From assembly GCA_040905385.1 (NCBI GenBank), contig JBBDRP010000002.1:523526-587525 (forward strand): DNA of 64,000 bases, in the 5' to 3' direction. The notes under the pieces were generated by a model. The model saw only the letters and a list, made by a program, of their open reading frames with translations. It did not search any database and had not been told where the DNA came from. The stretch's first letter is position 1. Every line of letters starts with the position of its first letter. Source of the stretch: Minisyncoccota bacterium. Lineage in GTDB: Bacteria > Patescibacteriota > Minisyncoccia > Phycocordibacterales > SW-6-46-9. Below are positions 2,720 to 61,692 of this stretch, piece after piece. Position numbers and translations under genes: made by a program.

Positions 2720-2793
2720 GGCCTGGTGGCGAAGTTAGTTAACGCGGGGGACTGCAAATCCTCTATCCGTCGGTGCAAATCCGATCCAGGCCT
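2720..2793 (+). tRNA. tRNA-Cys (anticodon GCA)
   Basis: Cloverleaf: acceptor GGCCTGG/CCAGGCC, anticodon stem GGGGA/TCCTC, loop CTGCAAA. The T-loop TGCAAAT is atypical (G at position 55). Confidence 0.55.
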
Positions 2794-2824
2794 CCTTCAC
2801 ACACATCTCTCATCTCACACACGT

Positions 2825-2846
2825 CAGGCTGGCCGGCGCCAGCCTG
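2825..2846 (+). other. Perfect 9-bp hairpin CAGGCTGGC-CGGC-GCCAGCCTG downstream of tRNA-Cys; no U-tract
   Basis: Inverted repeat read directly from the sequence. Confidence 0.4.
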
Positions 2847-2944
2847 CGACACTCTCATAGATTTTCTGCCTACGGCAGACCATGCAAATTCTATTCCGAG
2901 AGGTTCGCGAGAGATGTGTGTTCAGTCGTATTGATACAGGCTTC

Positions 2945-2997
2945 TTTACAAAGTGCCGGGAACGGGAATGCTCCGCACGCTGTAAAGCACACTGGTC
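2945..2997 (-). repeat. Degenerate pseudo-copy of the tRNA-Leu(TAG) 3' half plus its 3' flank
   Basis: ttctttacAAAGTGCCGGGaacGGGAatgctCCGCACGCTGTAAaGCACAcTGGTC versus the tRNA at 3015-3072 (~85 % identity). Confidence 0.55.
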
Positions 2998-3026
2998 GCG
3001 AGCCTTCGTGCTATTCCTTTATAAAG

Positions 3027-3108
3027 TGCCGGGGGCGGGAGTTGAACCCGCACGCTGTAAGGCACATGGTCCTAAACCATGCGTGTCTACCAGTTCCACC
3101 ACCCCGGC
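3027..3108 (-). tRNA. tRNA-Leu (anticodon TAG), class II with long variable arm
   Basis: Reverse complement folds as acceptor GCCGGGG/CCCCGGC, anticodon stem CATGG/CCATG, loop TTTAGGA, T-arm GCGGG-TTCAACT-CCCGC. Confidence 0.85.
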
Positions 3109-3124
3109 ACTTTATAAATGAACA

Positions 3125-3153
3125 TCTACCAGTTCCACCACCCCAGCACTTTA
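3125..3153 (-). repeat. 29-nt direct repeat of the tRNA-Leu(TAG) 5' end plus 6 nt of 5' flank
   Basis: TCTACCAGTTCCACCACCCCaGCACTTTA matches 3086-3114 with 1 mismatch. Confidence 0.6.
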
Positions 3154-3232
3154 AAAAGAAATCCCTGTAGCTACTCCACTTCCCTTGGTTATGTATCTTA
3201 CCAAAAAAATACGTAACTAACCAAAGTAAGTG

Positions 3233-3306
3233 TCCATCCGGTAGGAATTGAACCTACGGCCGTCTGCTTAAGAGGCAGCTGCTCTACCAGGCTGAGCTAC
3301 GGATGG
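3233..3306 (-). tRNA. tRNA-Lys (anticodon CTT)
   Basis: Reverse complement folds as acceptor CCATCCG/CGGATGG, D-arm GCTC-AGCCTGGTA-GAGC, anticodon loop CTCTTAA, T-arm GTAGG-TTCAATT-CCTAC. Confidence 0.75.
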
Positions 3307-3510
3307 ATATACACCTAATATCTCGCAACACGAAAATAATACCATAAAGAGTCGCATTTTATAAGTTTTATGAGTCTAGAGGCAGCTGTAAATAATTTAC
3401 ATCAAATGAAAAAAGGGGGATAGTAAGCCAGACAAGCGAGGAGAGAAGAAAAACAATGAAAATGAAGTTTACTGCGCTGAGTAATTTTGTGAACCAGGAG
3501 GGACTCGGTC

Positions 3511-3632
3511 ACAAATAAATTTACTGACGTAAATTTTTCTCGACCCCGGCTCGTGGTTTTTGCTTCGGCTCTGCCAAACAAAAACATCACTGCGCCTTTC
3601 TCGCCCCAACGCGAGCAAAGAAATTTGCTCGC
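3511..3632. repeat. Conserved tRNA-adjacent element, copy A, with palindrome AAATTTAC-TGAC-GTAAATTT (3517-3536) and terminal 9-bp hairpin (3611-3632)
   Basis: ~85 % identical over ~90 nt to 32291-32378. Preceded at 3493-3512 by a 15-nt copy of the tRNA-Leu(TAA) 3' end (ACCAGGAGGGACTCG). Confidence 0.6.
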
Positions 3633-3659
3633 TCCTACCCCATTTTCTAATACAAAATG

Positions 3660-3741
3660 TGGGCCAGGAGGGACTCGAACCCTCATGCCAATCGGCACAA
3701 CATTTTAAGTGTTGCGTGTATACCGGTTCCACCACTGGCCC
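3660..3741 (-). tRNA. tRNA-Leu (anticodon TAA), class II
   Basis: Reverse complement folds as acceptor GGGCCAG/CTGGCCC, anticodon stem CAACA/TGTTG, loop CTTAAAA, T-arm GAGGG-TTCGAGT-CCCTC. Confidence 0.85.
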
Positions 3742-3750
3742 TTATAAACA

Positions 3751-4230
3751 TCATTTCCTTCGATTCTGATTTCGACCACGATGAGTTGGTTGCAAGCTAT
3801 GACAATTTGGACACAGGATCTGTAAATTTTCCAATCGATTATCTCTACTGTCGCCATTCATGTGGTCAAGCTCTAAGGGTAATCTACCATCTTTGCTACG
3901 TTCTGCCCACCCACATTTCTCGCATTCAGGTTTTTTCAACCCTGCTTTAAAGAGCCGCTTCTTGAGCTTGTAACTCTGATAACTACTATCCTTAACCAAA
4001 ATTTCATCTAAAGACAGCAAATAACTCCCAACCCCCATCATCCCCTTACTCCAGCCCTTACCTTTAAAGTGTGATGTATCGAGATCATACTCCTTAATGT
4101 ATTTTTTTACCTGCGCATAATTCCCTCCTGCCGGCACCAAGCCTATCTTCTTTATAACCTGCCGAAAACTATATGATGTCTGTACGGCTTTTTCTAGATC
4201 TTTTTGTGTCCAACTTCGACGTTGTGCCAT
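3751..4230 (-). CDS. Free-standing HNH endonuclease
   Basis: C-terminal HNH motif ELDHMNGDSRDNRLENLQILCPNCHS. Starts 9 bp from tRNA-Leu(TAA). Confidence 0.8.
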   Translation of the reverse strand: MAQRRSWTQKDLEKAVQTSYSFRQVIKKIGLVPAGGNYAQVKKYIKEYDLDTSHFKGKGWSKGMMGVGSYLLSLDEILVKDSSYQSYKLKKRLFKAGLKKPECEKCGWAERSKDGRLPLELDHMNGDSRDNRLENLQILCPNCHSLQPTHRGRNQNRRK

Positions 4231-4302
4231 AAATTTATACTAGCATATGGTACAGGCAAATGTAATCCTTATCTTGTTTTAAGTAATATGAATAAACCAT
4301 AC

Positions 4303-4328
4303 AAAAACCCGCCAGCTGGCGGGTTTTT
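4303..4328. terminator. Bidirectional intrinsic terminator AAAAACCCGCCAGC-TGGCGGGTTTTT
   Basis: GC-rich perfect stem flanked by an A5 run and a T5 run. Sits after the pilin-like gene array (minus strand). Confidence 0.7.
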
Positions 4329-4355
4329 GAGTAGAACGTTCTATTTTAGAGGTTT

Positions 4356-4640
4356 CTACTGAAGCTGATCAAAGCCTTCAGGAGCAGTTACACCCGGTCC
4401 TAAAGAGCTAATGATTAGCTGCAGAATGCCCCAAACACCGACCATAATCACCAGGCCGATGATCGAGTACATCAGATGCTGCTTGCCTTTTTCACGCGCT
4501 GTATCATTGTCGGCATTAGCCATAAACTGGACAACACCGTAGATGAAGTAAACTAACGCGATCGCGAACAGTAAGCCAATCAACGGGTTGATTATCTCTG
4601 TAGAGAGATCGGTCACCAGTTGTTTAGCCGTATCGGACAT
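4356..4640 (-). CDS. TrbC/VirB2-type pilin-like small membrane protein, paralog 1 (no signal peptide)
   Basis: Two hydrophobic helices separated by a charged loop (DTAREKGKQH); related to the five genes that follow. Confidence 0.5.
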   Translation of the reverse strand: MSDTAKQLVTDLSTEIINPLIGLLFAIALVYFIYGVVQFMANADNDTAREKGKQHLMYSIIGLVIMVGVWGILQLIISSLGPGVTAPEGFDQLQ

Positions 4641-4691
4641 ATTGAGATTTCTATCGATCTACCGACAATTTCAAACTAACACGTCAGTGTA

Positions 4692-5066
4692 TTAGTTTGA
4701 ACTAGTATCAATGTTTGTTGGATTGATTGTCGCTTGGCTATCAATACCAAATGCATCAACAATGAACTGAATGATTCCACCAATAGCTGCTACTAAGAAT
4801 AGAGCAACAATTCCACCGATCATAATGTTCTTTCCCTTTGCTTTTGCCTCCTCATCATCTGCCTGGAAGACATACTTGGCCAGCCCCCAGAAGAATGCTA
4901 GAAGTGCAATAGCTGCAACCAGTGGGATCAATCCATTAATCAGTGTCTGCAAACTATCAACGAAATTTCCCACGTTCTCCAACTGTGCTGTAGCGACAAG
5001 CGGTGTTGCCGCAACTACAAAAGCTGCTGGAATGACTGCGAAAAATGCTTTACTTAACTTGTTCAT
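4692..5066 (-). CDS. TrbC/VirB2-type pilin-like protein, paralog 2
   Basis: Signal peptide ...ATPLVATAQ, helix LIPLVAAIALLAFFWGLAKYVF, loop EEAKAKGKN, helix IMIGGIVALFLVAAIGG. Confidence 0.6.
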   Translation of the reverse strand: MNKLSKAFFAVIPAAFVVAATPLVATAQLENVGNFVDSLQTLINGLIPLVAAIALLAFFWGLAKYVFQADDEEAKAKGKNIMIGGIVALFLVAAIGGIIQFIVDAFGIDSQATINPTNIDTSSN

Positions 5067-5138
5067 AATACGTACGAATTAATTATACGAGTAATAATGT
5101 GCACCCTTAATTAAGAGAGCGACAGGCCGGCTAATGTC

Positions 5139-5579
5139 TTAGCCAGTGCCGTCTCCACCATTATACACCATTTCTAGGTCGTCAATGCCATCTCCGGATT
5201 GAATATTAATAGTTGGTGGTGTGATGGAGCCACCGGTTTCTATATCCAAAGCTGTTGCCATAAACTCAATAATACCCCCAACGCTTGCAACCAAAAAAAG
5301 AGCAACAATACCACCAATCATGATTCTCTTGCCTTGCTGCTGCCCTTCATCGCTACCGGCATTAAAAATATACTTCGCCAACCCCCAGAAAAATGCCAGT
5401 AAGGAAAGACTGGCTACTAGAGGAATAAGCTGATTTACAATATTGCCCAGACTAGTTATAAGAGCACTTACACCTTCCTGTGCATGAGCTAATTGAGGAA
5501 ATACAAGAACAGCAGCAGATAGAAATATCGTTAATTCAATCACGCTCTTTTTTTTAAAGTATTTAAAATTCTTCAACAT
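5139..5579 (-). CDS. TrbC/VirB2-type pilin-like protein, paralog 3
   Basis: Signal peptide ...QLAHAQ; LIPLVASLSLLAFFWGLAKYIF ... KRIMIGGIVALFLVASVGG; ~75 % identical to paralog 2 in the core. Confidence 0.6.
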   Translation of the reverse strand: MLKNFKYFKKKSVIELTIFLSAAVLVFPQLAHAQEGVSALITSLGNIVNQLIPLVASLSLLAFFWGLAKYIFNAGSDEGQQQGKRIMIGGIVALFLVASVGGIIEFMATALDIETGGSITPPTINIQSGDGIDDLEMVYNGGDGTG

Positions 5580-5628
5580 ATAATCATATTACGCAAGATT
5601 CGAAATCAATGCAAAGTATAAATGTGGA

Positions 5629-5946
5629 TTACGGTGTTATTCCAATACTGCCACCGAACAAGGTCACAATAGCCCATATGGAGGTAATTGTGAATAGTCC
5701 GATTACCCCCCACAGCATCCGTTGTTTACTTCCCTCCTTCACCTCATCAGCTGCCGAGAAGACGTACTCAGCTAGCCCCCAAAAAAATACAAGCAAAGCA
5801 ATGCTAATCAGTATAGGGACAAGTGTTAGCAAGAAATCTGTTAAGTTACCAACAGCACCTTTGAAATCAGCTGGCTGAGCAAAGGTAATCTGAGGAATCG
5901 TTAACCCATATGTAAGCAAGATTAGTTTATTGTTTAAATTTAGCAT
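5629..5946 (-). CDS. TrbC/VirB2-type pilin-like protein, paralog 4
   Basis: Signal peptide ...ITFAQP; LVPILISIALLVFFWGLAEYVF; loop KEGSKQR; second helix. Confidence 0.6.
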   Translation of the reverse strand: MLNLNNKLILLTYGLTIPQITFAQPADFKGAVGNLTDFLLTLVPILISIALLVFFWGLAEYVFSAADEVKEGSKQRMLWGVIGLFTITSIWAIVTLFGGSIGITP

Positions 5947-5952
5947 ATCTCG

Positions 5953-6309
5953 TTAATCTTGAAGGTTAGTTGAAGTTCCCTCCAGAATACTAGCAATAAG
6001 ACTCGCACCGAGGATAATTGCTGCCCCGATCACGGTATACAGAGCGGTCTTCTGTGCCGTCTCGATCTTTCCGGTATTACCACCAGCTGTCACAAAAAGA
6101 AATCCAGCATAAATAATAAAGAAAACAATCACCGGAACCGAGAGAAATACAAGATCCTGCACTACTTGGTTCAGAAAATCCGTTAATGATTCAGCCTTCA
6201 GTGGATTTTCGAGTTTAGCCTGCGCCCCGACTGTACCTGGAAGCAGTACGGTAGATGCTAAAACCAGTACTGTTGATATTTTTTGATATGTAGAAGACAT
6301 ACAATTCAT
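5953..6309 (-). CDS. TrbC/VirB2-type pilin-like protein, paralog 5 (divergent)
   Basis: Signal peptide ...GTVGAQA; helix VFLSVPVIVFFIIYAGFLFVTAGG; loop NTGKIETAQK; helix 2. Confidence 0.55.
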   Translation of the reverse strand: MNCMSSTYQKISTVLVLASTVLLPGTVGAQAKLENPLKAESLTDFLNQVVQDLVFLSVPVIVFFIIYAGFLFVTAGGNTGKIETAQKTALYTVIGAAIILGASLIASILEGTSTNLQD

Positions 6310-6319
6310 AAGGATAACA

Positions 6320-6760
6320 TTAATCTAAAAGTTCTAGTGGAAGCAGCTCGGAATTATCATTTAGCCAGCCTTCACCAGTCAGGAGACTTACCAGGGTAAT
6401 AACAAGCAGGTATGCCATCAGCATAATCGCAAAACCGATGGCGGTGTTAAGAAAGATTGTCTTTGCTTGTGATACCTTTGATTCATCTCCAGCTGATGTC
6501 AGGTACAGAAAACCTGCGTACATAAACAATAGCACCGCCACACTGGTGGCAATCATAATCAACCACTCGATAAGACCGTTGATCATCGTAATAAAGGCCT
6601 CCCAGTCACAATCATTTCGACACGGGACAAGACCATTATCCTGAGCCATTACTGTGAGTGGAAGTAAAGCAGCTACCACTGCGGTTACTAAAAATCCAGC
6701 TCGGAGACGAAGCCGCAGGATACCTTTGTATGCACTAACTTTTAAGGTTGATATAGTCAT
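6320..6760 (-). CDS. TrbC/VirB2-type pilin-like protein, paralog 6 (divergent)
   Basis: Signal peptide ...TVMAQ; helix VAVLLFMYAGFLYLTSAGD; loop ESKVSQAK; helix 2. Confidence 0.55.
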   Translation of the reverse strand: MTISTLKVSAYKGILRLRLRAGFLVTAVVAALLPLTVMAQDNGLVPCRNDCDWEAFITMINGLIEWLIMIATSVAVLLFMYAGFLYLTSAGDESKVSQAKTIFLNTAIGFAIMLMAYLLVITLVSLLTGEGWLNDNSELLPLELLD

Positions 6761-6768: not shown

Positions 6769-8049
6769 CTAGAAAAGATTACCAAGTGAGGTTTCTGCCC
6801 GTTGGATTGCGCTACGGGTTGGAAGTCGTCCAGAATTAATATTACTAATCATCTCAGAAAAGATACTATCGGTAGCTTCAGGATCTGGATCCAACCAGCC
6901 ACGACTAATCAACGCTGACTGATGGAACACCTGCTGATATGGATCAGTAACCTGTTGAGATAAGACATCGCGACGAACCGGAGTAAAGTTTGTCTGGTTA
7001 ACGATGGCTCGTGCCATATCAGGCCCAGTAAGAAGTTTCAGGGCCTCTAGAATTGTAAGCTTGTTTGGTGCCTGATTGAGAATTGCAAAACCGTACACAG
7101 TCGCGTGAGTGCGAGCTAATCCTTCTTCCAGCTGTGGAATCACACTAACATCAAAGTTAAGATTCGGATTCTGCGAGCGAATATAGGAAATACTGCTGGC
7201 TGGAGCCACATACAAAGCCAAGTTCCCGCTGGTAAACTCCTGACGATCAGCCGGCATCGAACTATTCCATGAGTAGACACTACTGTTTGGGTTAGCATAC
7301 TGCGTATAAAGTCCTACCGCTGATTCGGCTGACTGTATATTCTGGGATAGTACAGTTTCAAACCTATCTGCGGAGATACGGGTCACAATCGGATTTCCTG
7401 CCTGCAGAAAAAGGCTCGAGAGTACCTCTGTCAATGCTGTAACGTTTCCAGCAGTACCAAAGTTAAGGGCAGCTGTCTGAATACTATCATCTCCAGCCTT
7501 ACGGGTAATCTGACGTGCGTAATCCGCAACCTCTTGCCAATTACTCGGTGGTGAAAGAAAACCAGCCTGGGTAACGATGTCTCGGTTCCAGTACATAACC
7601 AGCGGATCCATCGCTAAGGGTAAGGCTGAAATACCCTCACTAGACGTAAAGATCTCGGCACCTTCGATAAAGGTATCTCTGAACATTCGTGACGAATAGG
7701 CACCACTACCAATAGATGAAATCAAGTCTGAAAGCTGTAGCAGCTGCGTATGTGACATCAAAAGTACGTCTGGGCCACGTCCACGCGCCAAGGCATTCAC
7801 AAGCCGTGTCTCTAGTTGCCCAGCCGGAACTGACTCGTACGTAATGATAATACCATCCATATCGGCTATTCCTGAATTTTTAAGAAGATTATTAAATGTA
7901 TCCGATTCCCACTCACCCCAGACCGTAAAACTGACATTTACCTGCTCTTTATTACCAGAATTGAGTCCACCAAGAGCAAAAATAGCCACACCCACGACAG
8001 CGGCGACGATAAAGACTCCAATCAGGATTGTTTGAAATGAATTATTCAT
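6769..8049 (-). CDS. Extracellular solute-binding protein (SBP family 1-like) with N-terminal TM anchor
   Basis: TVWGEWESD..., GPDVLLMSHTQLLQL and PLVMYWNRDIVTQAG...PPSNWQEVADYARQI resemble maltose/sugar-binding proteins. Start chosen at MNNSFQTILIGVF to avoid overlap with the upstream gene. Confidence 0.6.
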   Translation of the reverse strand: MNNSFQTILIGVFIVAAVVGVAIFALGGLNSGNKEQVNVSFTVWGEWESDTFNNLLKNSGIADMDGIIITYESVPAGQLETRLVNALARGRGPDVLLMSHTQLLQLSDLISSIGSGAYSSRMFRDTFIEGAEIFTSSEGISALPLAMDPLVMYWNRDIVTQAGFLSPPSNWQEVADYARQITRKAGDDSIQTAALNFGTAGNVTALTEVLSSLFLQAGNPIVTRISADRFETVLSQNIQSAESAVGLYTQYANPNSSVYSWNSSMPADRQEFTSGNLALYVAPASSISYIRSQNPNLNFDVSVIPQLEEGLARTHATVYGFAILNQAPNKLTILEALKLLTGPDMARAIVNQTNFTPVRRDVLSQQVTDPYQQVFHQSALISRGWLDPDPEATDSIFSEMISNINSGRLPTRSAIQRAETSLGNLF

Positions 8050-8050: not shown

Positions 8051-8599
8051 CTATGATTTTTGTAAAATTGCGCCCCAGTGATGGGCTCCAACCCCGAGTT
8101 TTTGCATAAATTGCAGTCCGCTGCTGGCGGCAAGCTGCTTAAGCTCATCGATCGAAATCAGATGGTCTTCTGGTGGACCCAAGCCCCCATGCGTATCACT
8201 CCAGTCGATTACCAAAGCTCTACCACCCGAGCGAAGAATTCTGGCAGCCTCAGCCAGCAGAACATCTTTGTCCTTTACCTGAAACAGAACGTTTGAAAGA
8301 ATTACGACATCAACCGTCGTATCATCAAGCATACTACCACCCGGCTTTTCAAGATCACTCCATACCACATCAACCTGCGTCAGTCCCTCTCTTTCGGCCT
8401 GATTTTTAACCTTTTCAACGAGATCCTTCTGAATCTCAACCGCGCAGACATGCCCCTTCTCACCTACCATTCGAGCTGCAGCGAGGGTGTAGTGACCAGG
8501 TCCAGCACCAAGATCCGCCACCTCCATACCCGGCTCTAATCCAAAAGACTGGAGATTAGTTTGTGGATCTGCAAATGACATAGATGCATTATACCCCAC
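8051..8599 (-). CDS. Class I SAM-dependent methyltransferase
   Basis: Motif I VADLGAGPGHYT; Rossmann-fold methyltransferase spacing. Confidence 0.7.
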   Translation of the reverse strand: MGYNASMSFADPQTNLQSFGLEPGMEVADLGAGPGHYTLAAARMVGEKGHVCAVEIQKDLVEKVKNQAEREGLTQVDVVWSDLEKPGGSMLDDTTVDVVILSNVLFQVKDKDVLLAEAARILRSGGRALVIDWSDTHGGLGPPEDHLISIDELKQLAASSGLQFMQKLGVGAHHWGAILQKS

Positions 8600-8620
8600 A
8601 CAACGCTCAAATTTAAAAGT

Positions 8621-29019: not shown

Positions 29020-31356
29020 TTATCGTACCGAAAAGCCATCATTACCCTCAAGCCTCGTCTCAATTGACTGCATGTGTTCATTCACCTCCGCGTCACTCAG
29101 CGTGCGCTCATCGGACTGAAAGACCAACTTAAACGCATAAGAAATCTGGTTGTCTTTTTCGTACGTATCAAAAAGATTTGCAGCTACTAAAAGTTCACCA
29201 GCGACATCCTGAATAATGCTCTTTACATCACCCGGTTCGGCTCCGTCCGGTGTCCAGACAGCCACATCCCGAAGAACGTACGGATACATTGACGGCGTTC
29301 GGAATGATACTGGAGAAAACAGCGACGTATCATCTGTTACCGGCGATTCCGATGACATCTCCTGATTTTCTGGCAGTAGCGCTGTTGCAATCCCGTTGCT
29401 TACCTCCGGCTCAAAATCATAGTCAAACTTTCCGGAAAGCATACTGAAAACCTCAGTAATATCCTCGTCACCAGTATCACTATCGCTACCAACTGCCAAG
29501 GAGAAAACTTCTCGGTCATTTAGAAACACCTTGCCGATCTCGAACACCTGCAGATTCTCTGCAGCAAGAACCGGTTTATGTGTTTCGTTTGTATCTAAAA
29601 CGGTCGTAATATTATCTCGTAGTGTACTGCGCAGATACGCCTTGTCCTCTGCTACCGGATTTTTTAGCCTTACTTTCCCATCCTCAACCAGCGAGTAGGT
29701 CTTGACTTCGGTGTAGCCGAGCGAAACTAATGAGTCGCGAATATGACCACGAACATTTTCATCTACTGCTGGTGACACCTTATCTGGCATCACCGGCTGA
29801 ATCTTGTCGTACCCGTACACCCGCCCGACCTCCTCAATGAGATCCTGGCTATAGCGAAGGTCAGTGCGCCAATCTGGAATAGTGGCCACGATCCGTTCAT
29901 CGGCGAGCTCAGGAACGCGTCCATAGCCGACAGTATTTTCAAACTGCTTTGCTTCCTGCAGCGGCTCAATTACAACACCGCCATCGCCGTCATGACTATG
30001 GCGAGAGGCGTGCGCAATTTCTCCATTTCCAAGGTAAATTCCACAGTGATCAACACCTTCAGGAATATCTGTGCCAGCCATATACTCTTTTGTTTGATAG
30101 TAGATTTCACCACCCTCATCTTTCCCTGTATTAGCAAAAATAAGATCACCGGCCATAAGGTCTGATTCGCTTAGGCGTTCAGTATAAGCAAACTGATCGA
30201 CACTGATTCGTGGCAGCGCAATACCGGCCTGTACAAACATCCAGCTAACAAATGAAGAGCAGTCAAACGCCTTCGGAGCATCAGCCGTAACACTCGCACC
30301 ATATTTATACGGTGTGCCGACCTGATCAGGAGCCAACAAAGAAATATGCTGGGTCGGATTAACCACTTCTGTTTCGCAACCAAGCTGGTTCAGGATATCA
30401 ATAGTTTCCGTGGTTGAGATATCTGTACCTAAAAGCGCATTAACATGCTGGGTAGTTACTCCTACTTTATACGGTGCCTGTGGACGCGGATACACGTCAA
30501 GCACATCATCAGCAATCGTTGCATCAGCTACTTCCTGAATGAGCTGACTGAAGCGTTCCATTGCCCGCCGAGAGCGTGCTGCTGGTACATCATTCTCGAA
30601 CCGTTTCGAGGCATCGGTGCGGAGATTCAGCTTCTGTGATGTCTTGCGAATTGTGGCTGGATCAAACGAGCAAACACTAAGCATTACCTTAGTCGTGCTC
30701 TCATCAATACCACTTACCTGCCCACCCTTGATACCAGCAATATCCAGAGCCTTCTGGGAATCCGCAATGACCGGCATTCCTGGCTCGAGTGTGAAGACAT
30801 CACCATCCAGCGTTGTGATCTCTTCACCAGCCTCCGCCGAGCGGATCATAATTTCCATCCTGTCTTCACCGGCCAGCTTATCGTAATCAAAGGCATGCAC
30901 CGGCTGTCCTAGCTCGAAGGTCAGATAGTTAGTAATGTCTACCACATTATTTATACTTTTCTGCCCTAGTACCTTCAATTGATCACGAAGCCAGTCGGGT
31001 GATGGGCCAACCTCAACATCGAATGCGAGACGCTTCAATGCCCGACGGCAGGAACTGGTCTCAATCGCCAGCGAGAGGGCATCGGCTGATTTTAGCTGTT
31101 TGTCTACCTGAACTTTCGGACCAATCGGCGTAAACGTAAGATCTGCAAGCACTGCCAACTCGCGCGCAACACCCTCATGGCAAAGTGAGTCACTGGCCCG
31201 GTTTGGTAGTACATCTATATCAAAAACTGTGTCATTATCGATCGCGCGAAATCCTTCCACCTCATACGCACCATGTGTCAGTACATCCGCGACCTCTGCC
31301 GGAGTAGGTAAATCTTCCTTAATATAATCTTGTAGCCACCTGTAAGATATTTTCAT
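29020..31356 (-). CDS. pheT: Phenylalanyl-tRNA synthetase beta subunit with an inserted NlpC/P60 peptidase domain; lacks the B2 tRNA-binding domain
   Basis: N-terminus MKISYRWLQDYI; B3/B4, B5 (DLIEEVGRVYGYDKI), catalytic-like and FDX-ACB domains are all present. Residues ~333-488 read YKYGASVTADAPKAFDCSSFVSWMFVQAGIALPRISVDQ...GDLIFANTG...DHCGIYLGNGEIAHAS, an NlpC/P60 fold with its Cys-His-His triad. Confidence 0.9.
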   Translation of the reverse strand: MKISYRWLQDYIKEDLPTPAEVADVLTHGAYEVEGFRAIDNDTVFDIDVLPNRASDSLCHEGVARELAVLADLTFTPIGPKVQVDKQLKSADALSLAIETSSCRRALKRLAFDVEVGPSPDWLRDQLKVLGQKSINNVVDITNYLTFELGQPVHAFDYDKLAGEDRMEIMIRSAEAGEEITTLDGDVFTLEPGMPVIADSQKALDIAGIKGGQVSGIDESTTKVMLSVCSFDPATIRKTSQKLNLRTDASKRFENDVPAARSRRAMERFSQLIQEVADATIADDVLDVYPRPQAPYKVGVTTQHVNALLGTDISTTETIDILNQLGCETEVVNPTQHISLLAPDQVGTPYKYGASVTADAPKAFDCSSFVSWMFVQAGIALPRISVDQFAYTERLSESDLMAGDLIFANTGKDEGGEIYYQTKEYMAGTDIPEGVDHCGIYLGNGEIAHASRHSHDGDGGVVIEPLQEAKQFENTVGYGRVPELADERIVATIPDWRTDLRYSQDLIEEVGRVYGYDKIQPVMPDKVSPAVDENVRGHIRDSLVSLGYTEVKTYSLVEDGKVRLKNPVAEDKAYLRSTLRDNITTVLDTNETHKPVLAAENLQVFEIGKVFLNDREVFSLAVGSDSDTGDEDITEVFSMLSGKFDYDFEPEVSNGIATALLPENQEMSSESPVTDDTSLFSPVSFRTPSMYPYVLRDVAVWTPDGAEPGDVKSIIQDVAGELLVAANLFDTYEKDNQISYAFKLVFQSDERTLSDAEVNEHMQSIETRLEGNDGFSVR

Positions 31357-48644: not shown

Positions 48645-49295
48645 TTACGTGTCATCAATACGAAAAACCTTCCCAAGCAATCCATTCTTTACCCACTGGT
48701 GCATATACCGCCGATACAAAAGAAATAACCCGAGAATTCCAGCAAAAATAAGACTAGATTCAAACAGCATCTTTTCTGGATTAGTAATAACATTTCCAAA
48801 GTAAAACCCCGTCGCAATAATTGCCGCCGACCAGATTGGCTGCGCAATCAGAATCGGAGCATAAAACTTTTTTGTCGGAATACGAGTAACACCCGCCATC
48901 ATCACCACAAACTGAGACAGGAGATTTATCGGCGCCAATCGTGAAAATAGCATCAGTGAGAAGTAATTATCCTGAAACTTTTCTCGCCACTGCTCGTCAG
49001 CTTTATTAAGCAGTACATCAAGTCGAGCCGTTATCCATCGACCAAGCTGGTTCTTTTTAAATTTTCGGTTCCCATTCCGAAATAAGAAATACAATACTGA
49101 ATCACTAATAAGGGTTCCAATTACATACAAAAAGAAAACTGGCAGGAACGCCAGTAGCCCCAGAGATATGAGTACACCAGAAATAATGCCGGTTACTGGA
49201 CCTTCGACAATGAAAAGAAAAAGCAGGGCGATGTAGCCATACTGCGATATCCAGTAGGGCAGCTCCGAACCTAAAACTGTAAGTGATGGATCCAT
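48645..49295 (-). CDS. DedA/SNARE-associated membrane protein, paralog 1
   Basis: WISQYGYIALLFLFIVEGPVTG...; tandem paralog of the next gene. Confidence 0.6.
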   Translation of the reverse strand: MDPSLTVLGSELPYWISQYGYIALLFLFIVEGPVTGIISGVLISLGLLAFLPVFFLYVIGTLISDSVLYFLFRNGNRKFKKNQLGRWITARLDVLLNKADEQWREKFQDNYFSLMLFSRLAPINLLSQFVVMMAGVTRIPTKKFYAPILIAQPIWSAAIIATGFYFGNVITNPEKMLFESSLIFAGILGLFLLYRRYMHQWVKNGLLGKVFRIDDT

Positions 49296-49319
49296 GTACT
49301 TTTCATTTTATATCAAAAA

Positions 49320-49982
49320 CTATGCCGAATCCTTTTTCGTGCCCACAAACTGGGTAAACTCACGTTTGATATGATCATGCAGATAGTGGTAGTAAAGACC
49401 AATCAATACCAAGGCTAGGAGGGTAAAGACGCCAGCTTCATTAAGTAACTTAGCCGGATTCTGAATGGTATCACCAAGATAGTAGCCGGAAGCTATAACG
49501 ACCCCACTCCAGAATGGCTGACCAATAATAATTGGTGGGTACACCTTGCGCAGCGGAATCCGTAAAGCACCTGCCACTGCGGCCACCGTCTGCGATGAGG
49601 CTGGAAGCGGAGCCAGCTTTGCCAAAATCATAATCGGAAAGAAATGTCGGCGAAACCGGTCTGCCCACTCTGGCTCCTTGGCTCTATCCTCACCGAGATA
49701 ATCAAACTGCTGAAGTGGTTTGTGAATAAATGGTACCTTCTTTAACCAACCACTACGATTGAAGGCTAAAAAGTACACGATGGTATCGGTGATGGTTGTG
49801 CCGATCACATACATTAGAAAAATTGGCAGTGGCTCGAGCGCACCTAGTGATATCAAAATTCCGGAGGTAAAGCCAACCGAAGCGCCTTCGATAATAAAAA
49901 GCGGCAGAAGGATAAAGTAACCATACTGGGAGATCCAGTGTAGTATCTCCACTCCTGCCGCTGTTGTTGTGGCAATATCCAT
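49320..49982 (-). CDS. DedA/SNARE-associated membrane protein, paralog 2
   Basis: WISQYGYFILLPLFIIEGASVG... Confidence 0.6.
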   Translation of the reverse strand: MDIATTTAAGVEILHWISQYGYFILLPLFIIEGASVGFTSGILISLGALEPLPIFLMYVIGTTITDTIVYFLAFNRSGWLKKVPFIHKPLQQFDYLGEDRAKEPEWADRFRRHFFPIMILAKLAPLPASSQTVAAVAGALRIPLRKVYPPIIIGQPFWSGVVIASGYYLGDTIQNPAKLLNEAGVFTLLALVLIGLYYHYLHDHIKREFTQFVGTKKDSA

Positions 49983-51748: not shown

Positions 51749-52213
51749 CTAAGCGTCTTTATTATTTTCTAAACGAGGCTTGATGAAGAGAGCTGCAATC
51801 CAAACACACAGCGTTGAGATGAAGGACAGAAGACAGAACTGACAGAAAGCCTCGATCTCCCAGATCTGTAGATACAGAAACCAGAAGGACATCATCATCC
51901 CAATGGTGGCAACCGCAAGCAGTCCACTGTGAGAGATCCGGTCACGCCTGAAAAAGAATACGGTAAGCAGCGTTAGTAGTGTGGCGTAGTAAAGTACTCC
52001 CAAGACAGAGACAGGTATCCCAAAGATTGTCGCCCAGGAGCTGGCTAGTACCGTACTACAGCCATCAATTATATTGCAGACAACAGGTACTGATGAGTAG
52101 TGACTGATCGTTAGATAAACCGAGTCCCCAAAGCCTATCAAAATAGCTAGAAAGGCCACACCGATGAATATGTACTGCTTCTGTGTAGAGAAAAATTTAG
52201 GCATCGATATCAC
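51749..52213 (-). CDS. VKOR-family membrane protein (vitamin K epoxide reductase / DsbB analog)
   Basis: Loop cysteines CNIIDGC and a TM-embedded CQFC; 4-5 TM. Confidence 0.6.
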   Translation of the reverse strand: MISMPKFFSTQKQYIFIGVAFLAILIGFGDSVYLTISHYSSVPVVCNIIDGCSTVLASSWATIFGIPVSVLGVLYYATLLTLLTVFFFRRDRISHSGLLAVATIGMMMSFWFLYLQIWEIEAFCQFCLLSFISTLCVWIAALFIKPRLENNKDA

Positions 52214-53102
52214 ATACGTTATAAAGCGCAGCTATGTCTTCCTGGCTCAACTCAACATCATCAAGTGACTGATCCTCCATCAAGTAGTACATAACCGAGT
52301 CTGTGCTGGAGACGTGACCAATGCCAAGTGCATGGCCAAATTCATGCACCATTGCCAGCTTGAGATCATCATGTCCTTCAAACTGATACACATTTATCAT
52401 ATCACCAGTATAGGTTGCCTGACTAAACTCCTGCGGGGAACCAAAACGCTGGGAAAAGGTCGTGGCGGTCTGGTTGTACTCATCAGCAACAACATTTCCA
52501 CGATCAGCTAATTCATTTACTTGCTCACGAAGTACTTCCAAATCCTGCTGCTGACTCTCGAGCTGCTGAAGCTGCTGACGTAGTTGTTCCTGCTCAGTCA
52601 CCAACTCCTCGCGGACATCCTTCGGGGCACCGCCACGCTCATTCCACTCGCGGACGGTCTGGTTATACGCCTCGAGATCAGCTTCGTACGCATCCAAATT
52701 ATCCTCATATGAAGATAGTCGAGCATCATACGCTGAACTAGCCTCCTTATAAGCATTGATAATTTCACTGTGTGAAGCCTCGAGGTTAGATAGCGTATCC
52801 TCATATGAGTTAGCAGTCTCGGTAGTCTGCTGTCGGTGATCAAACTCAAAATTTACCGTAAAATCCGCATTTTCATCGTACGTAAATAATTCTCGATCAA
52901 TCGGTTCCTCCCAAACATTCTCGGCCTCCTGAAGCAAGTTCATAACCGTGCTTGTCGCAATACCGAAACGATCATCAATAACACCAATTCGATACAGAAT
53001 CGGCTGTGTGCACGGACCGGCAAACAATCGACTTGATGACAGGCCAGAGATCGTGGCTATGGTAAGAACTCCGATAAGTATGTATGTACCGATCCGATGC
53101 AT
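52197..53102 (-). CDS. Metzincin (matrixin/M10-like) zinc metalloprotease with a coiled-coil region
   Basis: HEFGHALGIGH; Met-turn SVMYY. Start chosen at MHRIGTYIL to avoid overlap with the next gene. Confidence 0.7.
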   Translation of the reverse strand: MHRIGTYILIGVLTIATISGLSSSRLFAGPCTQPILYRIGVIDDRFGIATSTVMNLLQEAENVWEEPIDRELFTYDENADFTVNFEFDHRQQTTETANSYEDTLSNLEASHSEIINAYKEASSAYDARLSSYEDNLDAYEADLEAYNQTVREWNERGGAPKDVREELVTEQEQLRQQLQQLESQQQDLEVLREQVNELADRGNVVADEYNQTATTFSQRFGSPQEFSQATYTGDMINVYQFEGHDDLKLAMVHEFGHALGIGHVSSTDSVMYYLMEDQSLDDVELSQEDIAALYNVCDIDA

Positions 53103-53121
53103 GGTCGCGATTATATCATTT

Positions 53122-53838
53122 TTACCTGCTTCGATGGAAATTTTCGGCCATTTCATAAGCATCCTGGGCCTGTGACACCGTCACTCCTGTCCCGTTACTG
53201 CCGGAGTACATTAGATTTGATTTATCATCCACATGTCCGAGACCCAAGACATGACCAACCTCATGAGCCAGCGTTCGAAAGTCATAACCGGTCGTGTGCT
53301 CGGCCACCGCCACGGTATCTCGTCCTGAGAAAGCGATGCCATTCAGGCCGCCAAGCCCAGGGGTAACCACCACATACAACTCATCTGTCTCCATCCGCGG
53401 AAGAATCCTCTCTAACCTACCAGGATTTGCCACCAGCTCCGGTCCAGAAATATCAAGCCTGTCAACTGAAATTTCTTCAACACTGACAGGAGACAACTCA
53501 ACTGCCATCTGTGCTAGCAGTTGATTAGCATTCTCTACCAGACGCCGTGGTCGGTCCGGGTCATCCGTGGGATTACTAGCCAGCACATAGACCATCGTAG
53601 GAATCGATCGAAGTGGTGCTTGGATAACCGAGCTGTACTCACGTACCGCAATATCAGCCGGTGTCTCACCAAATCGCAGATACTGATGTCCGCCAAACAG
53701 ATACAGCATTGACAGGATGAAAATTCCGGCTATCACCGCCCGGACAATTTTACCTACCGTAGAGCGCGGTCGGATAGGTTCCGGATCCTGCTCTAGTGGT
53801 GTCGTATTTTCGGTATGCGTAATGTTGTAATCACTCAC
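53122..53838 (-). CDS. Metzincin zinc metalloprotease, second tandem copy
   Basis: HEVGHVLGLGH; Met-turn NLMYS; TM anchor. Confidence 0.7.
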   Translation of the reverse strand: MSDYNITHTENTTPLEQDPEPIRPRSTVGKIVRAVIAGIFILSMLYLFGGHQYLRFGETPADIAVREYSSVIQAPLRSIPTMVYVLASNPTDDPDRPRRLVENANQLLAQMAVELSPVSVEEISVDRLDISGPELVANPGRLERILPRMETDELYVVVTPGLGGLNGIAFSGRDTVAVAEHTTGYDFRTLAHEVGHVLGLGHVDDKSNLMYSGSNGTGVTVSQAQDAYEMAENFHRSR

Positions 53839-61023: not shown

Positions 61024-61692
61024 TCATATTCCTGCTCCACAATTAAGACAGTGTCCCGGATGATCGGCTGGTTTAGAACTATGAGAACGACAAGGGCCTT
61101 CGATACAGAGATAAACAGCACTATACCAATCAAAATCATCAGCCCATGAGGCAGCTGGAAATTTACACACCTGTACCCCATCTATACTTTCACAAAAGCG
61201 AATACTTAACTGATAAACCTTGTCGCTGGATATATCCCAGTTATCCCAGTCAAAAACTGAGCCCTCCCAGGCCGGTACCGGCCATTCACCTCCATCGATG
61301 TAATCCTTAATATCACTAGGTACGTCACGACTCTCATCAGGTGGATAGCCACCCCGGTTATTAGCGTAGAGTTCTAGCGCATTGCGCATCGAGCGCAAAT
61401 CCTGTTGTGACTTAGCTAATCGTGCTTGATCTCTAACATCATTCAGCATTGCCAAAACAAGCGATGCTAAAAGTCCCACAATCGCAATTACCACCAAAAG
61501 CTCTATCAAGGTAAAACCAGCTTCTTTATTTTCGGAAGCTGGTTTTGCCCCGATGGTGCTCGGAGAAAATGAATACGAGTGTTCATCTTGCTCCTCACTT
61601 GTCGTGGTGAACCCACGTCGGCTTTGCTGACTATCACTTGAAGCTTCGAGTATGCGAGAGGAACTACGTTGCTCTTGGGAAAAATAAGGCAT
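61024..61692 (-). CDS. Type IV pilin-like protein (prepilin N-methylation motif) with an unusually long leader
   Basis: ...KEAGFTLIELLVVIAIVGLLA is a class III signal. 57 aa precede the G/F cleavage site; C-terminal Cys pairs. Confidence 0.7.
   Translation of the reverse strand: MPYFSQEQRSSSRILEASSDSQQSRRGFTTTSEEQDEHSYSFSPSTIGAKPASENKEAGFTLIELLVVIAIVGLLASLVLAMLNDVRDQARLAKSQQDLRSMRNALELYANNRGGYPPDESRDVPSDIKDYIDGGEWPVPAWEGSVFDWDNWDISSDKVYQLSIRFCESIDGVQVCKFPAASWADDFDWYSAVYLCIEGPCRSHSSKPADHPGHCLNCGAGI

What the first reader, a model, noticed from the sequence alone, without database searches (positions are those of the whole stretch)
4356..6760. Six tandem paralogs of small two-helix TrbC/VirB2-type pilin-like proteins
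Six consecutive minus-strand genes (94-146 aa) share one architecture: a signal peptide (missing in the first), a hydrophobic helix with the core LIPLVAxIALLAFFWGLAKYVF or YAGFL(F/Y)(V/L)T(S/A)(A/G)G, a short charged loop (KAKGK, QQQGKR, EGSKQR), and a second hydrophobic helix. This is the topology of conjugative/T4SS pilins (TrbC/VirB2). No VirB4, VirB6 or VirD4 gene is nearby. The array is bounded by a bidirectional terminator and lies next to an HNH endonuclease and a tRNA island. Sequence divergence among the copies (~75 % down to <30 %) suggests a diversifying surface-filament or pilin repertoire, possibly for host attachment in an episymbiont, or antigenic variation.
Basis: partly seen in the sequence, partly recalled or inferred. 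Interest (0 to 1): 0.65.

Follow-up and report, generated by a model that had tools for sequence, protein, structure and literature searches.

The report
Conserved six-gene VirB2-like pilin operon
Six neighbouring genes in this ultrasmall (Patescibacteria/CPR) bacterium encode small conjugation-pilin-like membrane proteins; such arrays are already described for this phylum, but here the six form a fixed, old set always joined to a sugar-binding-protein gene, not a fast-changing repertoire.

Summary
Six minus-strand ORFs at 4356-6760 all match Pfam T4SS_pilin (PF18895): five are above the curated cut-off and one is 0.8 bit below. One also matches TrbC/VirB2 above its cut-off. The window comes from a Candidatus Paceibacterota MAG. 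Tandem VirB2-like pilin arrays in Patescibacteria are already published (441 arrays of 2-11 genes; six essential pilins in Ca. Southlakia epibionticum), so the array itself is a new member of a known kind.

The "diversifying / antigenic variation" reading is not supported.
- The paralogs are 22-53% identical, not ~75%.
- Each gene has a positional orthologue in relatives. Types A, B and F are monophyletic in 80-98% of bootstraps, and no paralogs group by genome.
- The pilins diverge no faster than the neighbouring SBP gene.

The apparently unreported part is the context. In 67 species-representative genomes and 80 metagenome loci, the array (4-8 genes, order A-B-[C-like]n-F) directly follows a membrane-anchored sugar-type solute-binding protein, usually preceded by a SAM methyltransferase. 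This unit lies between gyrA and infB. No VirB4 lies within 10 kb.

Best reading: a vertically inherited heteromeric pilin set, probably serving a T4SS encoded elsewhere. Whether this genome has VirB4 could not be tested.

The parts
8588..8617 (-). Promoter-like site (TTTAAA-18-TATAAT) in the 21-39 bp spacer after the gyrA stop. The -10 box ends 6 nt before the ATG at 8581, which suggests a leaderless transcript.
   Evidence: Best consensus match in the region, 10 of 12; sequence read. This is a consensus match only, so the function is inferred.
8051..8581 (-). Class I SAM-dependent methyltransferase of 176 aa (182 aa if the GTG at 8599 is the start). It is the first gene of the conserved unit. 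Substrate unknown.
   Evidence: Pfam Methyltransf_31/11/25. Closest solved structure is 3dh0, an uncharacterised SAM methyltransferase, E = 4e-20. It lies directly upstream of the SBP in 54 of 65 metagenome loci and in nearly all of the 67 genome loci that retain that region.
6769..8049 (-). Membrane-anchored solute-binding-protein homologue (SBP_bac_1/8) of 426 aa, taking M34 of the longer ORF as the start. It has a conserved N-terminal M-x-x-F-Q followed by a TM helix. One base separates the methyltransferase stop codon from its ATG, and its stop is 8 bp before pilin A.
   Evidence: Pfam, E = 1e-17. Closest PDB entries are sugar-binding proteins (4r9f, MalE2, Lin1841), E about 1e-10. N-terminal conservation: and alignment A3. 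A pilin gene follows directly in 70 of 71 metagenome loci that have room downstream. In the genome loci, 51 of 59 with room pass the strict adjacency test; most of the remaining 8 have the SBP but are masked by ORF over-extension.
6320..6760 (-). Pilin A (146 aa). Signal peptide ending VMA|Q, a Cys-x4-Cys loop, then the two-helix pilin domain.
   Evidence: PF18895, 30.5 bits. The type-A orthogroup has 401/500 bootstrap support. In relatives the A-position gene carries 300-700 aa FN3/PKD/Ig-like ectodomains N-terminal to the pilin domain.
5953..6309 (-). Pilin B (118 aa). Signal peptide ending VGA|Q, a conserved ENPL motif, and a YAGFLFVTAGG core.
   Evidence: TrbC PF04956, 35.7 bits against a cut-off of 27.9; PF18895, 35 bits. 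Orthogroup support 479/500.
5629..5946 (-). Pilin C (105 aa). Leader ending TFA|Q. Member of the C/D/E group.
   Evidence: PF18895, 25.8 bits, just below the 26.6 cut-off. 47% identical to E.
5139..5579 (-). Pilin D (146 aa). Signal peptide ending AHA|Q and a 40-aa C-terminal tail.
   Evidence: PF18895, 28 bits. 53% identical to E. NCBI locus tag WD335_02645.
4692..5066 (-). Pilin E (124 aa). Signal peptide ending ATA|Q.
   Evidence: PF18895, 35.9 bits. AlphaFold model of the mature part: two helices (residues 2-40 and 45-79), pLDDT 83. Top Foldseek PDB hit is the Aeropyrum pernix conjugation pilus 8dfu (probability 0.96, E = 0.5). NCBI locus tag WD335_02640.
4356..4640 (-). Pilin F (94 aa). 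No signal peptide. It is the most conserved of the six and is last in the array in most species examined.
   Evidence: PF18895, 44 bits. NF045849, 52.9 bits against a cut-off of 40. Orthogroup support 492/500. 71 of 90 F-type proteins in relatives have only two hydrophobic segments.
4302..4329 (.). Intrinsic-terminator hairpin CAAAAACCCGCCAGCTGGCGGGTTTTTG, beginning 26 nt after the F stop codon. A- and T-runs on either side make it potentially bidirectional. It marks the end of the unit.
   Evidence: 12-pair stem with 7 G-C pairs; sequence read.

Best explanation
The six genes are the distal part of one chromosomal, vertically inherited transcription unit: promoter - SAM methyltransferase - anchored sugar-type SBP - pilins A, B, C, D, E, F - terminator. 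It encodes six non-interchangeable VirB2/TrbC-superfamily subunits.

Shown:
- Family membership.
- The architecture of a leader plus a two-helix hairpin.
- Positional orthology of the genes.
- Obligate linkage to the SBP gene.
- Absence of VirB4 nearby.

Inferred:
- Five subunits are inserted by Sec and cut by signal peptidase I after Ala, which leaves an N-terminal Gln.
- F inserts without cleavage.
- All six sit N-out/C-out with the basic loop in the cytoplasm.
- A VirB4-type ATPase encoded elsewhere (near dnaA in this class, according to the literature) extracts them from the membrane. They then polymerise into a heteromeric pilus or conduit that crosses the wall towards a host cell.
- A is a specialised minor subunit, since in relatives it carries Ig-like adhesin domains.
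- B and F are further fixed components, and the C/D/E group is probably the bulk subunits.
- The SBP and the methyltransferase are accessory. Possible roles are glycan recognition or capture for the SBP and subunit modification for the methyltransferase. Neither role has been tested.
For: - Pfam and NCBIfam hits for all six proteins.
- The model is a helical hairpin, and the best PDB match is a conjugative pilin. A profile of E-type homologues has pKM101 TraM as its top PDB sequence hit, E = 0.02.
- Gene spacing is tight: 1 nt between the methyltransferase stop and the SBP ATG, then 8, 10 and 6 bp for SBP-A, A-B and B-C, then 49-72 bp spacers, then a strong terminator.
- The same gene order occurs in five sequenced relatives, in 67 GTDB species representatives and in 70 of 71 SBP-seeded metagenome loci.
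- Orthogroup bootstraps and divergence comparable to neighbouring genes.
- A-position subunits fused to FN3/PKD ectodomains show that the N-terminus faces outward.
- Literature: Patescibacterial VirB2-like arrays are described. VirB4 is present in 2,417 of 3,035 assemblies, and the pilin genes are near virB4 in only 1,135 of the 1,948 pilin-bearing assemblies (PMC12102498). Each of the six pilins SEML1_0014-0019 of Ca. Southlakia epibionticum is essential in Tn-seq (PMC10633639).
Against: - No VirB4, VirB6, VirB3 or T4CP gene lies in the 64-kb window or within 10 kb of the array in any of the 67 related genome loci. The 80 SBP-seeded metagenome loci were scanned only for pilin, SBP, methyltransferase and gyrA genes, not for VirB4.
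- Whether the source genome has VirB4 could not be tested.
- No PF18895 protein has been shown experimentally to form a filament.
- Structural similarity is not statistically significant (Foldseek E = 0.5), because helical hairpins carry little information.
- tblastn of F and B against 72,556 plasmids found nothing.
- The near-obligate coupling to an SBP is not a feature of any characterised T4SS.
Confidence: 0.6

Rival explanations
1. Antigenic or host-range variation repertoire. The paralogs would be alternative major pilins, expressed one at a time or mixed, to evade recognition or to fit different hosts.
For: Low identity between paralogs, 22-53%. Copy number varies from 4 to 8 between species, and the middle C/D/E group expands and contracts. 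In one relative (L008) C, D and E cluster with each other (385/500), which suggests lineage-specific duplication or gene conversion. There is precedent in Bartonella and Anaplasma VirB2 paralogues, as cited in PMC12102498.
Against: A, B and F are ancient orthogroups fixed in position across a whole class. Divergence is no faster than in the neighbouring SBP, and dN/dS is 0.08-0.21. A-B-C are tightly packed, which implies co-expression. There are no silent cassettes or repeats. All six Southlakia pilins are individually essential.
Confidence: 0.1
2. An SBP-centred surface organelle independent of the T4SS. The VirB2-like subunits would form a membrane-rooted scaffold or channel that positions the anchored sugar-binding protein beyond the wall. 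This would be functionally analogous to the Sulfolobus bindosome, and would capture host glycans or nutrients.
For: SBP-pilin adjacency is near-obligate in both directions: 51 loci strict plus about 7 masked out of 59 genome loci with room, and 70 of 71 metagenome loci. The spacing suggests translational coupling. The SBP N-terminus (M-x-x-F-Q plus TM) is more conserved than a plain anchor would need to be. The unit is detached from virB4 throughout the class. The SBP is of the sugar-binding type, and no ABC permease or ATPase is adjacent.
Against: No assembly ATPase is in the operon. In Saccharimonadia, homologous arrays sit inside the T4SS locus without an SBP. The SBP lacks a canonical class III (prepilin) signal. 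Conserved synteny in streamlined genomes does not by itself prove physical interaction.
Confidence: 0.2
3. Ordinary small bitopic or hairpin membrane proteins that never leave the membrane (for example holin-like proteins, or stabilisers of another complex). The Pfam name would then be misleading.
For: PF18895 is a predicted family, not an experimentally defined one. The scores are modest, 26-44 bits. Many weak hits to unrelated TM families appear in the same scans. Fold search is non-significant.
Against: B passes the curated TrbC/VirB2 threshold and F passes an NCBIfam conjugal-transfer equivalog threshold. The signal peptide plus N-out fusions to Ig-like ectodomains point to surface display. 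Homologues are embedded in the essential T4SS locus of Southlakia.
Confidence: 0.1

Closest known systems
VirB2-like pilin arrays of Patescibacteria (Quinonero-Coronel et al. 2025, PMC12102498; SEML1_0014-0019 of Ca. Southlakia epibionticum, Wang et al. 2023, PMC10633639; the 'Sec-secreted array' of TM7x)
   Same: Same Pfam families (PF18895, PF04956). Tandem same-strand arrays of 2-11 genes. Low identity between paralogs (published mean 25%, maximum 54%; here 22-53%). Six genes, as in Southlakia. A monoderm CPR host.
   Different: In Southlakia the array lies inside the T4SS locus, next to VirB6-, PrgI- and VirB4-like genes. Here, and across Paceibacteria, it is a separate operon headed by a methyltransferase and an SBP, between gyrA and infB. 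The published survey looked only around virB4 and reported arrays mainly in Microgenomatia and Saccharimonadia. The fixed A-B-[C]n-F order and the SBP linkage were not found in the literature I searched.
TrbC/VirB2 conjugative pilins of diderm T4SSs (RP4 TrbC, Ti-plasmid VirB2, pKM101 TraM)
   Same: Signal peptide plus two hydrophobic helices joined by a short basic loop. B passes the TrbC Pfam threshold. The E-type profile's top PDB sequence hit is TraM 8cw4. The cleavage site leaves an N-terminal Gln, as I recall for Agrobacterium VirB2 (from memory, not tested).
   Different: Usually a single gene per system, sitting in the virB/trb operon next to VirB3 and VirB4. Cyclisation by a TraF-like peptidase in P-type systems; no such gene was seen here. 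This organism has no outer membrane.
Mbov_0395 / MMCAP2_0565 family (NCBIfam NF045849) of Mycoplasma ICEs
   Same: F matches across the full 80-residue model above the curated cut-off (52.9 against 40 bits). It is about 90 aa long, has no signal peptide and has two TM helices. The family comes from an MPF-FATA-type (monoderm) conjugation system, the class to which Patescibacterial VirB4 is related.
   Different: It is encoded on a mobile ICE beside VirB4 and VirD4 and is a single copy. Here the gene is chromosomal, part of the core genome and one of six. Only F passes the cut-off. No literature on the family's function was found.
Archaeal conjugation/Ced-type pilins (Aeropyrum pernix pilus, PDB 8dfu)
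   Same: Best structural match for the mature E model (TM-score 0.60/0.69, probability 0.96, 21% identity). A helical-hairpin pilin from a wall-crossing system in an organism without an outer membrane.
   Different: E-value 0.5, so not significant. No detectable sequence homology was tested. Different domain of life.
Sulfolobus bindosome (Bas system; from my own knowledge, Zolghadr et al. 2007)
   Same: Sugar-binding proteins genetically coupled to several small pilin-like proteins.
   Different: Bas pilins are type IV (class III signal) pilins, and an ATPase (BasE) and a membrane protein (BasF) are encoded alongside them. Here the pilins are VirB2-type, no ATPase is present, and the SBP has no recognisable prepilin signal. 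This is an analogy only.

Membership tests
VirB2/TrbC-superfamily T4SS pilin | Profile match to Pfam TrbC (PF04956) or T4SS_pilin (PF18895) above the gathering score | tested here: met
   PF18895: F 44, E 35.9, D 28, B 35 and A 30.5 bits, all above 26.6; C 25.8 bits, just below. PF04956: B 35.7 bits, above 27.9; D and E 16.7 bits, below.
VirB2/TrbC-superfamily T4SS pilin | Cleavable leader followed by two hydrophobic helices joined by a short, positively charged loop | tested here: met
   The hydropathy scan finds a leader plus two helices in A, B, D and E, and two helices without a leader in F. C's leader is below the scan threshold but ends in A|Q like the other four. AlphaFold models: helices 3-26, 32-67 and 72-105 in the full-length protein, and a two-helix hairpin for the mature form, pLDDT 79-83. 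Cleavage itself was not tested.
VirB2/TrbC-superfamily T4SS pilin | Fold similar to solved conjugative pilins | tested here: inconclusive
VirB2/TrbC-superfamily T4SS pilin | Encoded with, or in a genome that has, a VirB4 ATPase and VirB6/VirB3-like channel components | tested here: not met
   None in the 64-kb window. None within 10 kb in the 67 related genome loci. Presence elsewhere in the 784-kb source contig cannot be tested with these tools. The literature reports VirB4 in 80% of Patescibacteria assemblies.
VirB2/TrbC-superfamily T4SS pilin | Polymerises into an extracellular filament | not testable with these tools
   Needs microscopy or proteomics.
Patescibacterial VirB2-like pilin array (PMC12102498) | At least two PF18895/PF04956 genes in tandem (or separated by one gene) in a Patescibacteria genome, highly divergent from each other | tested here: met
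   Six tandem genes with 22-53% identity. The source is a Candidatus Paceibacterota MAG.
Antigenic-variation pilin repertoire (Bartonella/Anaplasma VirB2 paralogues) | Rapid, lineage-specific turnover: paralogs cluster by genome, evolutionary rate is elevated, or selection is positive | tested here: not met
   By-genome clustering in 0 of 500 bootstraps. A, B and F are orthogroups at 401-492 of 500. Orthologue identity is at least that of the flanking SBP. dN/dS is 0.08-0.21 where dS is defined, and dS is saturated. Only the C/D/E subgroup shows lineage-specific change.
Bindosome-like SBP display system | SBP with a class III (prepilin) signal plus a dedicated assembly ATPase | tested here: not met
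   The SBP N-terminus is M-x-x-F-Q plus a TM helix, with no G/A|F-T-L-I-E motif. No ATPase is in the unit.
Mbov_0395 family pilin-like conjugal transfer protein (NF045849) | Whole-protein score above NCBIfam's curated cut-off of 40 bits | tested here: met
   F only: 52.9 bits, residues 7-79 against model positions 7-79 of 80. The other five score 10-23 bits.

The most novel reading that the evidence does not exclude
In class Paceibacteria the VirB2-like pilins are no longer just a T4SS accessory. Together with the anchored sugar-binding protein and the methyltransferase, they would form a self-contained core-genome surface organelle. This would be a heteropolymeric A-B-[C]n-F filament or conduit that carries or serves an SBP, a VirB2-based counterpart of the archaeal bindosome. 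It would be used to capture or import host-derived glycans, with the methyltransferase modifying the subunits.
Probability: 0.15. Interest if true: 0.75.

Novelty: new variant of a known kind. Interest (0 to 1): 0.42.

Why it matters
Patescibacteria make up a large share of uncultivated bacterial diversity. Their T4SS with its pilin array is the only T4SS known to be essential for its owner's growth, and its function is unknown.

This work shows that in the largest class, Paceibacteria, the pilins form a fixed set of distinct subunits. One of them carries adhesin-like domains in many species. The set is always co-encoded with a sugar-binding protein and usually a methyltransferase, and it lies away from virB4. 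That turns a vague 'variable pilins' idea into specific testable hypotheses:
- a heteromeric filament with defined minor and major subunits;
- the SBP as a functional partner;
- possible subunit methylation.

It also gives two new candidate components to include in structural and genetic work on epibiont-host contact.

The array in this window, taken by itself, is only one more example of a published phenomenon.

Tried and rejected
1. Finding VirB4 in the source genome failed.
   - The genome is not among the GTDB representatives (best hit 69% identical).
   - The look-up of encoding contigs reached only a 7.5-kb Logan contig.
   - No VirB4 seed sequence from a close relative could be obtained, because none lies within 10 kb of the array in any locus.
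3. tblastn of F and B against 72,556 plasmids, to link the family to conjugative elements, found nothing.
4. A literature search for the Mbov_0395 family returned nothing relevant.
5. dN/dS: synonymous sites are saturated between the closest available relatives, so only upper-bound-like ratios were obtained.
6. Technical failures, all repeated successfully:
   - a missing file path;
   - the first NJ bootstrap script timed out;
   - the second gave NaN distances; the repeat is.
7. Internal promoters before D and E: I read -10-like boxes (TAATAT, TATAAT) in the spacers. Their -35 parts match only 3 of 6 and the scanning tool did not call them, so they are not listed as parts.
8. The HNH endonuclease and the tRNA cluster as part of the system: rejected. 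They lie beyond the terminator, and relatives have different content there, for example a serine recombinase in L005.
Full report
**1. The observation**

The region 4356-6760 holds six consecutive minus-strand ORFs. I name them A to F in the order of transcription:

| Gene | Coordinates | Length |
|---|---|---|
| A | 6320-6760 | 146 aa |
| B | 5953-6309 | 118 aa |
| C | 5629-5946 | 105 aa |
| D | 5139-5579 | 146 aa |
| E | 4692-5066 | 124 aa |
| F | 4356-4640 | 94 aa |

- A hydropathy scan finds an N-terminal signal-peptide-like segment plus two hydrophobic helices in A, B, D and E. F has only the two helices.
- C's short leader fell below the scan threshold. It has the same form as the others.
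- All five leaders end in small-x-Ala followed by Gln: VMA|Q, VGA|Q, TFA|Q, AHA|Q, ATA|Q.
- Pairwise identity is at most 53% (D-E), 47% (C-E), and 22-38% for the other pairs.
- The hairpin CAAAAACCCGCCAGCTGGCGGGTTTTTG at 4302-4329 begins 26 nt after the F stop codon. It is the strongest terminator-like site in the region.

**2. What the proteins are**

- All six match Pfam T4SS_pilin (PF18895). The scores are F 44, E 35.9, D 28, C 25.8, B 35 and A 30.5 bits, against a gathering score of 26.6.
- B also matches TrbC/VirB2 (PF04956) at 35.7 bits, against a cut-off of 27.9.
- F matches the NCBIfam equivalog NF045849, "Mbov_0395 family pilin-like conjugal transfer protein", at 52.9 bits against 40.
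- An AlphaFold model of E built with 48 homologues shows the leader helix plus a helical hairpin, pLDDT 79.
- The mature part alone gives a two-helix hairpin, pLDDT 83. Its best Foldseek PDB match is the conjugation pilus of Aeropyrum pernix, 8dfu (probability 0.96, TM 0.60/0.69). The E-value is 0.5, so this is consistent but not decisive.
- A profile of the E-type family has pKM101 TraM (8cw4) as its top hit among PDB sequences, E = 0.02.

Homology to the VirB2/TrbC superfamily therefore rests mainly on the curated profile thresholds.

**3. Source and prior knowledge**

- E and D are identical to NCBI proteins WD335_02640 and WD335_02645 of a Candidatus Paceibacterota MAG, on a 784-kb contig.
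- The rest of the window is housekeeping: infB, gyrA, gyrB, leuS, pheST, tsf, rpsB, a release factor, pentose-phosphate and glycolytic enzymes. No VirB4, VirB6 or VirD4 domain is present.
- The phenomenon is published. Quinonero-Coronel et al. 2025 (PMC12102498) used PF04956 and PF18895. They report:
  - VirB2-like pilins in 1,948 Patescibacteria assemblies that also contain VirB4;
  - pilin genes near virB4 in 1,135 of those assemblies;
  - 441 arrays of 2-11 pilin genes, with mean identity 25% and maximum 54%.
- Wang et al. 2023 (PMC10633639) found six PF18895 pilins, SEML1_0014-0019, inside the T4SS locus of Ca. Southlakia epibionticum. Each is essential in Tn-seq.
- A 2025 review (PMC12857230) calls this the first indication that a monoderm T4SS might make a pilus.

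The array in this window is thus a new member of a known kind.

**4. Not a diversifying repertoire**

Close relatives:
- Four relatives recovered through homologues of E all show gyrA (where present) - methyltransferase - SBP - six pilins, in the same size order.
- These are L002 (a 91-kb NCBI contig), L004/L005, L006/L007 and L008.

Sequence comparison:
- Mean identity between genes at the same position in different genomes is 42-60%. Between different positions it is 17-36%, except D-E at 46%.
- In 500 NJ bootstraps:
  - type A is monophyletic in 401, B in 479, F in 492, A+B in 499 and C+D+E in 334;
  - paralogs of one genome never group together, 0 of 500.
- The C/D/E group is the dynamic part. 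In the most distant relative, L008, its three members cluster with each other (385 of 500).

Rate of change:
- Between the window and L004, identity is GyrA 90%, IF2 84%, methyltransferase 72%, SBP 58% and pilins 60-77%.
- Synonymous sites are saturated. Where dN/dS is defined it is 0.08-0.21.

These are old, distinct subunits under purifying selection. With the individual essentiality of all six Southlakia pilins, this argues for non-redundant roles rather than antigenic variation.

**5. The conserved operon**

Layout in the window:
- The gene upstream of A encodes an SBP_bac_1/8 protein. Its likely start is M34 at 8049, giving 426 aa, which matches the gene call on an independent assembly of the same organism.
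- One base separates its ATG from the stop codon of a 176-aa class I SAM methyltransferase (8051-8581). Its own stop is 8 bp before A.
- The A-B and B-C spacers are 10 and 6 bp. The C-D, D-E and E-F spacers are 49, 72 and 51 bp. The same tight-then-loose pattern is seen in the four relatives.
- The best promoter-like site of the region is TTTAAA-18-TATAAT at 8617-8588. It lies between gyrA and the methyltransferase, and its -10 box ends 6 nt before the ATG at 8581. That would fit a leaderless transcript, but this is inference from a consensus match.

First test of the linkage, seeded with F:
- A scan of one genome per GTDB species with an F-type alignment returned 67 loci.
- All are Paceibacteria-type MAGs: Nomura-, Kaiser-, Adler-, Taylor- and Vogelbacteria and others.
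- With HMMs built from the five genomes, almost every locus shows a same-strand array of 4-8 pilin genes.
- The SBP lies directly upstream in 51 of 59 loci with room under a strict distance rule. Most of the other 8 have the SBP but are masked by ORF over-extension. Only L061 lacks it.
- The methyltransferase lies upstream of the SBP. gyrA lies further upstream and infB downstream.

Reciprocal test, seeded with the SBP:
- An SBP alignment was run against metagenome contigs. The best 80 of at least 579 hits were kept.
- A pilin gene lies directly downstream in 70 of 71 loci with room. Arrays have 4-8 genes.
- The methyltransferase is adjacent in 54 of 65 loci.

Gene order and neighbours:
- Typing every pilin against the six type-HMMs gives the dominant order A-B-[C/D/E-like x 1-4]-F.
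- No VirB4-like family recurs within 10 kb of the array in the 67 genome loci. The recurrent neighbours are the SBP, the methyltransferase, gyrA, infB, a metallo-beta-lactamase-fold protein, an aminotransferase and ClpB.
- The published survey examined only the neighbourhood of virB4. It places virB4 near dnaA in Paceibacteria.
- I found no report of the SBP/methyltransferase linkage or of the fixed subunit order in the literature I could search.

**6. Clues to mechanism**

- In many relatives the A-position gene, and sometimes B, encodes a protein of 320-770 aa. The pilin domain is at the C-terminus and is preceded by FN3, PKD or purple-acid-phosphatase-N Ig-like domains.
  - This shows that the N-terminus faces outward.
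  - It suggests A is a minor subunit that displays an adhesin-like module.
  - In this window A has only a Cys-x4-Cys loop. A VKOR homologue at 51749-52213 could support disulfide formation.
- F lacks a leader in most species: 71 of 90 F-type proteins have two hydrophobic segments, against mostly three for A-E. Its acidic N-tail and basic loop fit the same N-out/C-out topology.
- About 40-60% of A-E-type proteins across species have the small-x-[AGS]|Q pattern after the first hydrophobic segment.
- The SBP's nearest solved relatives are oligosaccharide-binding proteins: 4r9f, MalE2 and Lin1841, E about 1e-10. Its N-terminus, M-x-x-F-Q plus a TM helix, is invariant at F and Q in 12 diverse orthologues.
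- The methyltransferase resembles only uncharacterised enzymes (3dh0).

**7. Interpretation**

- Best explanation (confidence about 0.6). This is a core-genome operon for six non-interchangeable VirB2-superfamily subunits. They are inserted in the membrane, processed, then extracted and polymerised by the VirB4-type T4SS encoded elsewhere. The product would be a heteromeric pilus or conduit towards a host cell. The SBP and the methyltransferase are conserved accessories.
  - Shown: family membership, architecture, positional orthology, linkage to the SBP, absence of nearby VirB4.
  - Inferred: processing, topology, VirB4 dependence, filament formation, subunit roles.
- SBP-centred organelle independent of the T4SS, bindosome-like (about 0.2).
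- Variant repertoire (about 0.1).
- Non-pilus membrane proteins (about 0.1).

**8. Limits**

- I could not determine whether the source genome encodes VirB4.
- No experimental evidence exists that any PF18895 protein forms a filament.
- Structural similarity is not statistically significant.
- Promoter and terminator calls are consensus matches only.
- The taxon labels of several TPA MAGs ("uncultured Candidatus Saccharibacteria") conflict with their Paceibacteria-type synteny and were not resolved.

**9. Verdict**

The pilin-family interpretation is supported. The diversification idea is not.

The array itself is already a known kind. The class-wide methyltransferase-SBP-pilin operon with ordered subunits, detached from virB4, is a variant that appears undescribed and is worth a short follow-up.

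Interest: 0.42.

Noticed in passing
window 29020-31356 (-): The phenylalanyl-tRNA synthetase beta chain carries an NlpC/P60 peptidoglycan-hydrolase-type domain (residues 347-454) inserted between its B3_4 and B5 domains. This is an unusual insertion in a housekeeping enzyme.
   Followed up: no
window 61024-61692 (-), with 61779-63370: A type IV pilin or pseudopilin gene with a canonical class III signal (KEAG|FTLIELLVV; Pfam N_methyl). The ORF is probably over-extended at its 5' end. It is followed by two 250-aa ORFs with no family match. The organism therefore has type IV pilus components as well as the VirB2-like set.
   Followed up: partly
window 2720-4230; L005 11559-13208: The stretch between the array's terminator and infB/rbfA varies between relatives. 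Here it holds an HNH endonuclease and tRNA-Cys, Leu, Lys and Leu. L005 has a 549-aa serine recombinase there. Other relatives have unrelated genes. It looks like an insertion hot spot next to tRNA genes.
   Followed up: partly
window 6769-8049 (-); alignment A3: The SBP N-terminus is M-x-x-F-Q followed by a TM helix, and F5 and Q6 are invariant in 12 diverse orthologues. It has no basic n-region and no signal-peptidase site. That is more conservation than a simple membrane anchor would need, and it is unexplained.
   Followed up: partly
L006 7724-9268; L011 6839-8692; L026 5330-8348; L038 6192-8492; L056 6441-8057 and others: In many Paceibacteria the first pilin gene, and sometimes the second, is fused to large N-terminal FN3/PKD/Ig-like ectodomains. 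L006 also has Asp-rich, calcium-binding-like repeats. The window's A subunit lacks this and has only a Cys-x4-Cys loop.
   Followed up: partly
window 8581-8617 (-); 5579-5591 (-): The -10-like boxes end 6 nt before the start codons of the methyltransferase and of pilin D, and no Shine-Dalgarno sequence is visible before D, E or F. This may indicate leaderless or SD-independent translation in this organism.
   Followed up: no
L008 9033-10390: In the most distant relative with six genes, the C, D and E paralogs cluster with each other rather than with their positional counterparts (385 of 500 bootstraps). This suggests either lineage-specific duplication or gene conversion within the middle group.
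   Followed up: partly
window 51749-53838 (-) and 48645-49982 (-): A VKOR-family gene lies next to two tandem matrixin-like metalloprotease genes, and there are two tandem VTT/DedA-domain membrane-protein genes. These are further tandem paralog pairs encoding envelope proteins.
   Followed up: no
whole window: Nearly all genes are on the minus strand and GC skew is negative throughout; cumulative skew falls monotonically. The window therefore lies within one replichore, and the origin is somewhere beyond the high-coordinate end. gyrB and gyrA are 14 kb apart, and neither is next to dnaA here.
   Followed up: no
L009, L012, L014, L017 and other loci: Many TPA_asm MAGs titled 'uncultured Candidatus Saccharibacteria bacterium' carry the Paceibacteria-type gyrA-methyltransferase-SBP-pilin synteny. 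L009 is the same contig as L002. The record titles are probably generic mislabels.
   Followed up: no
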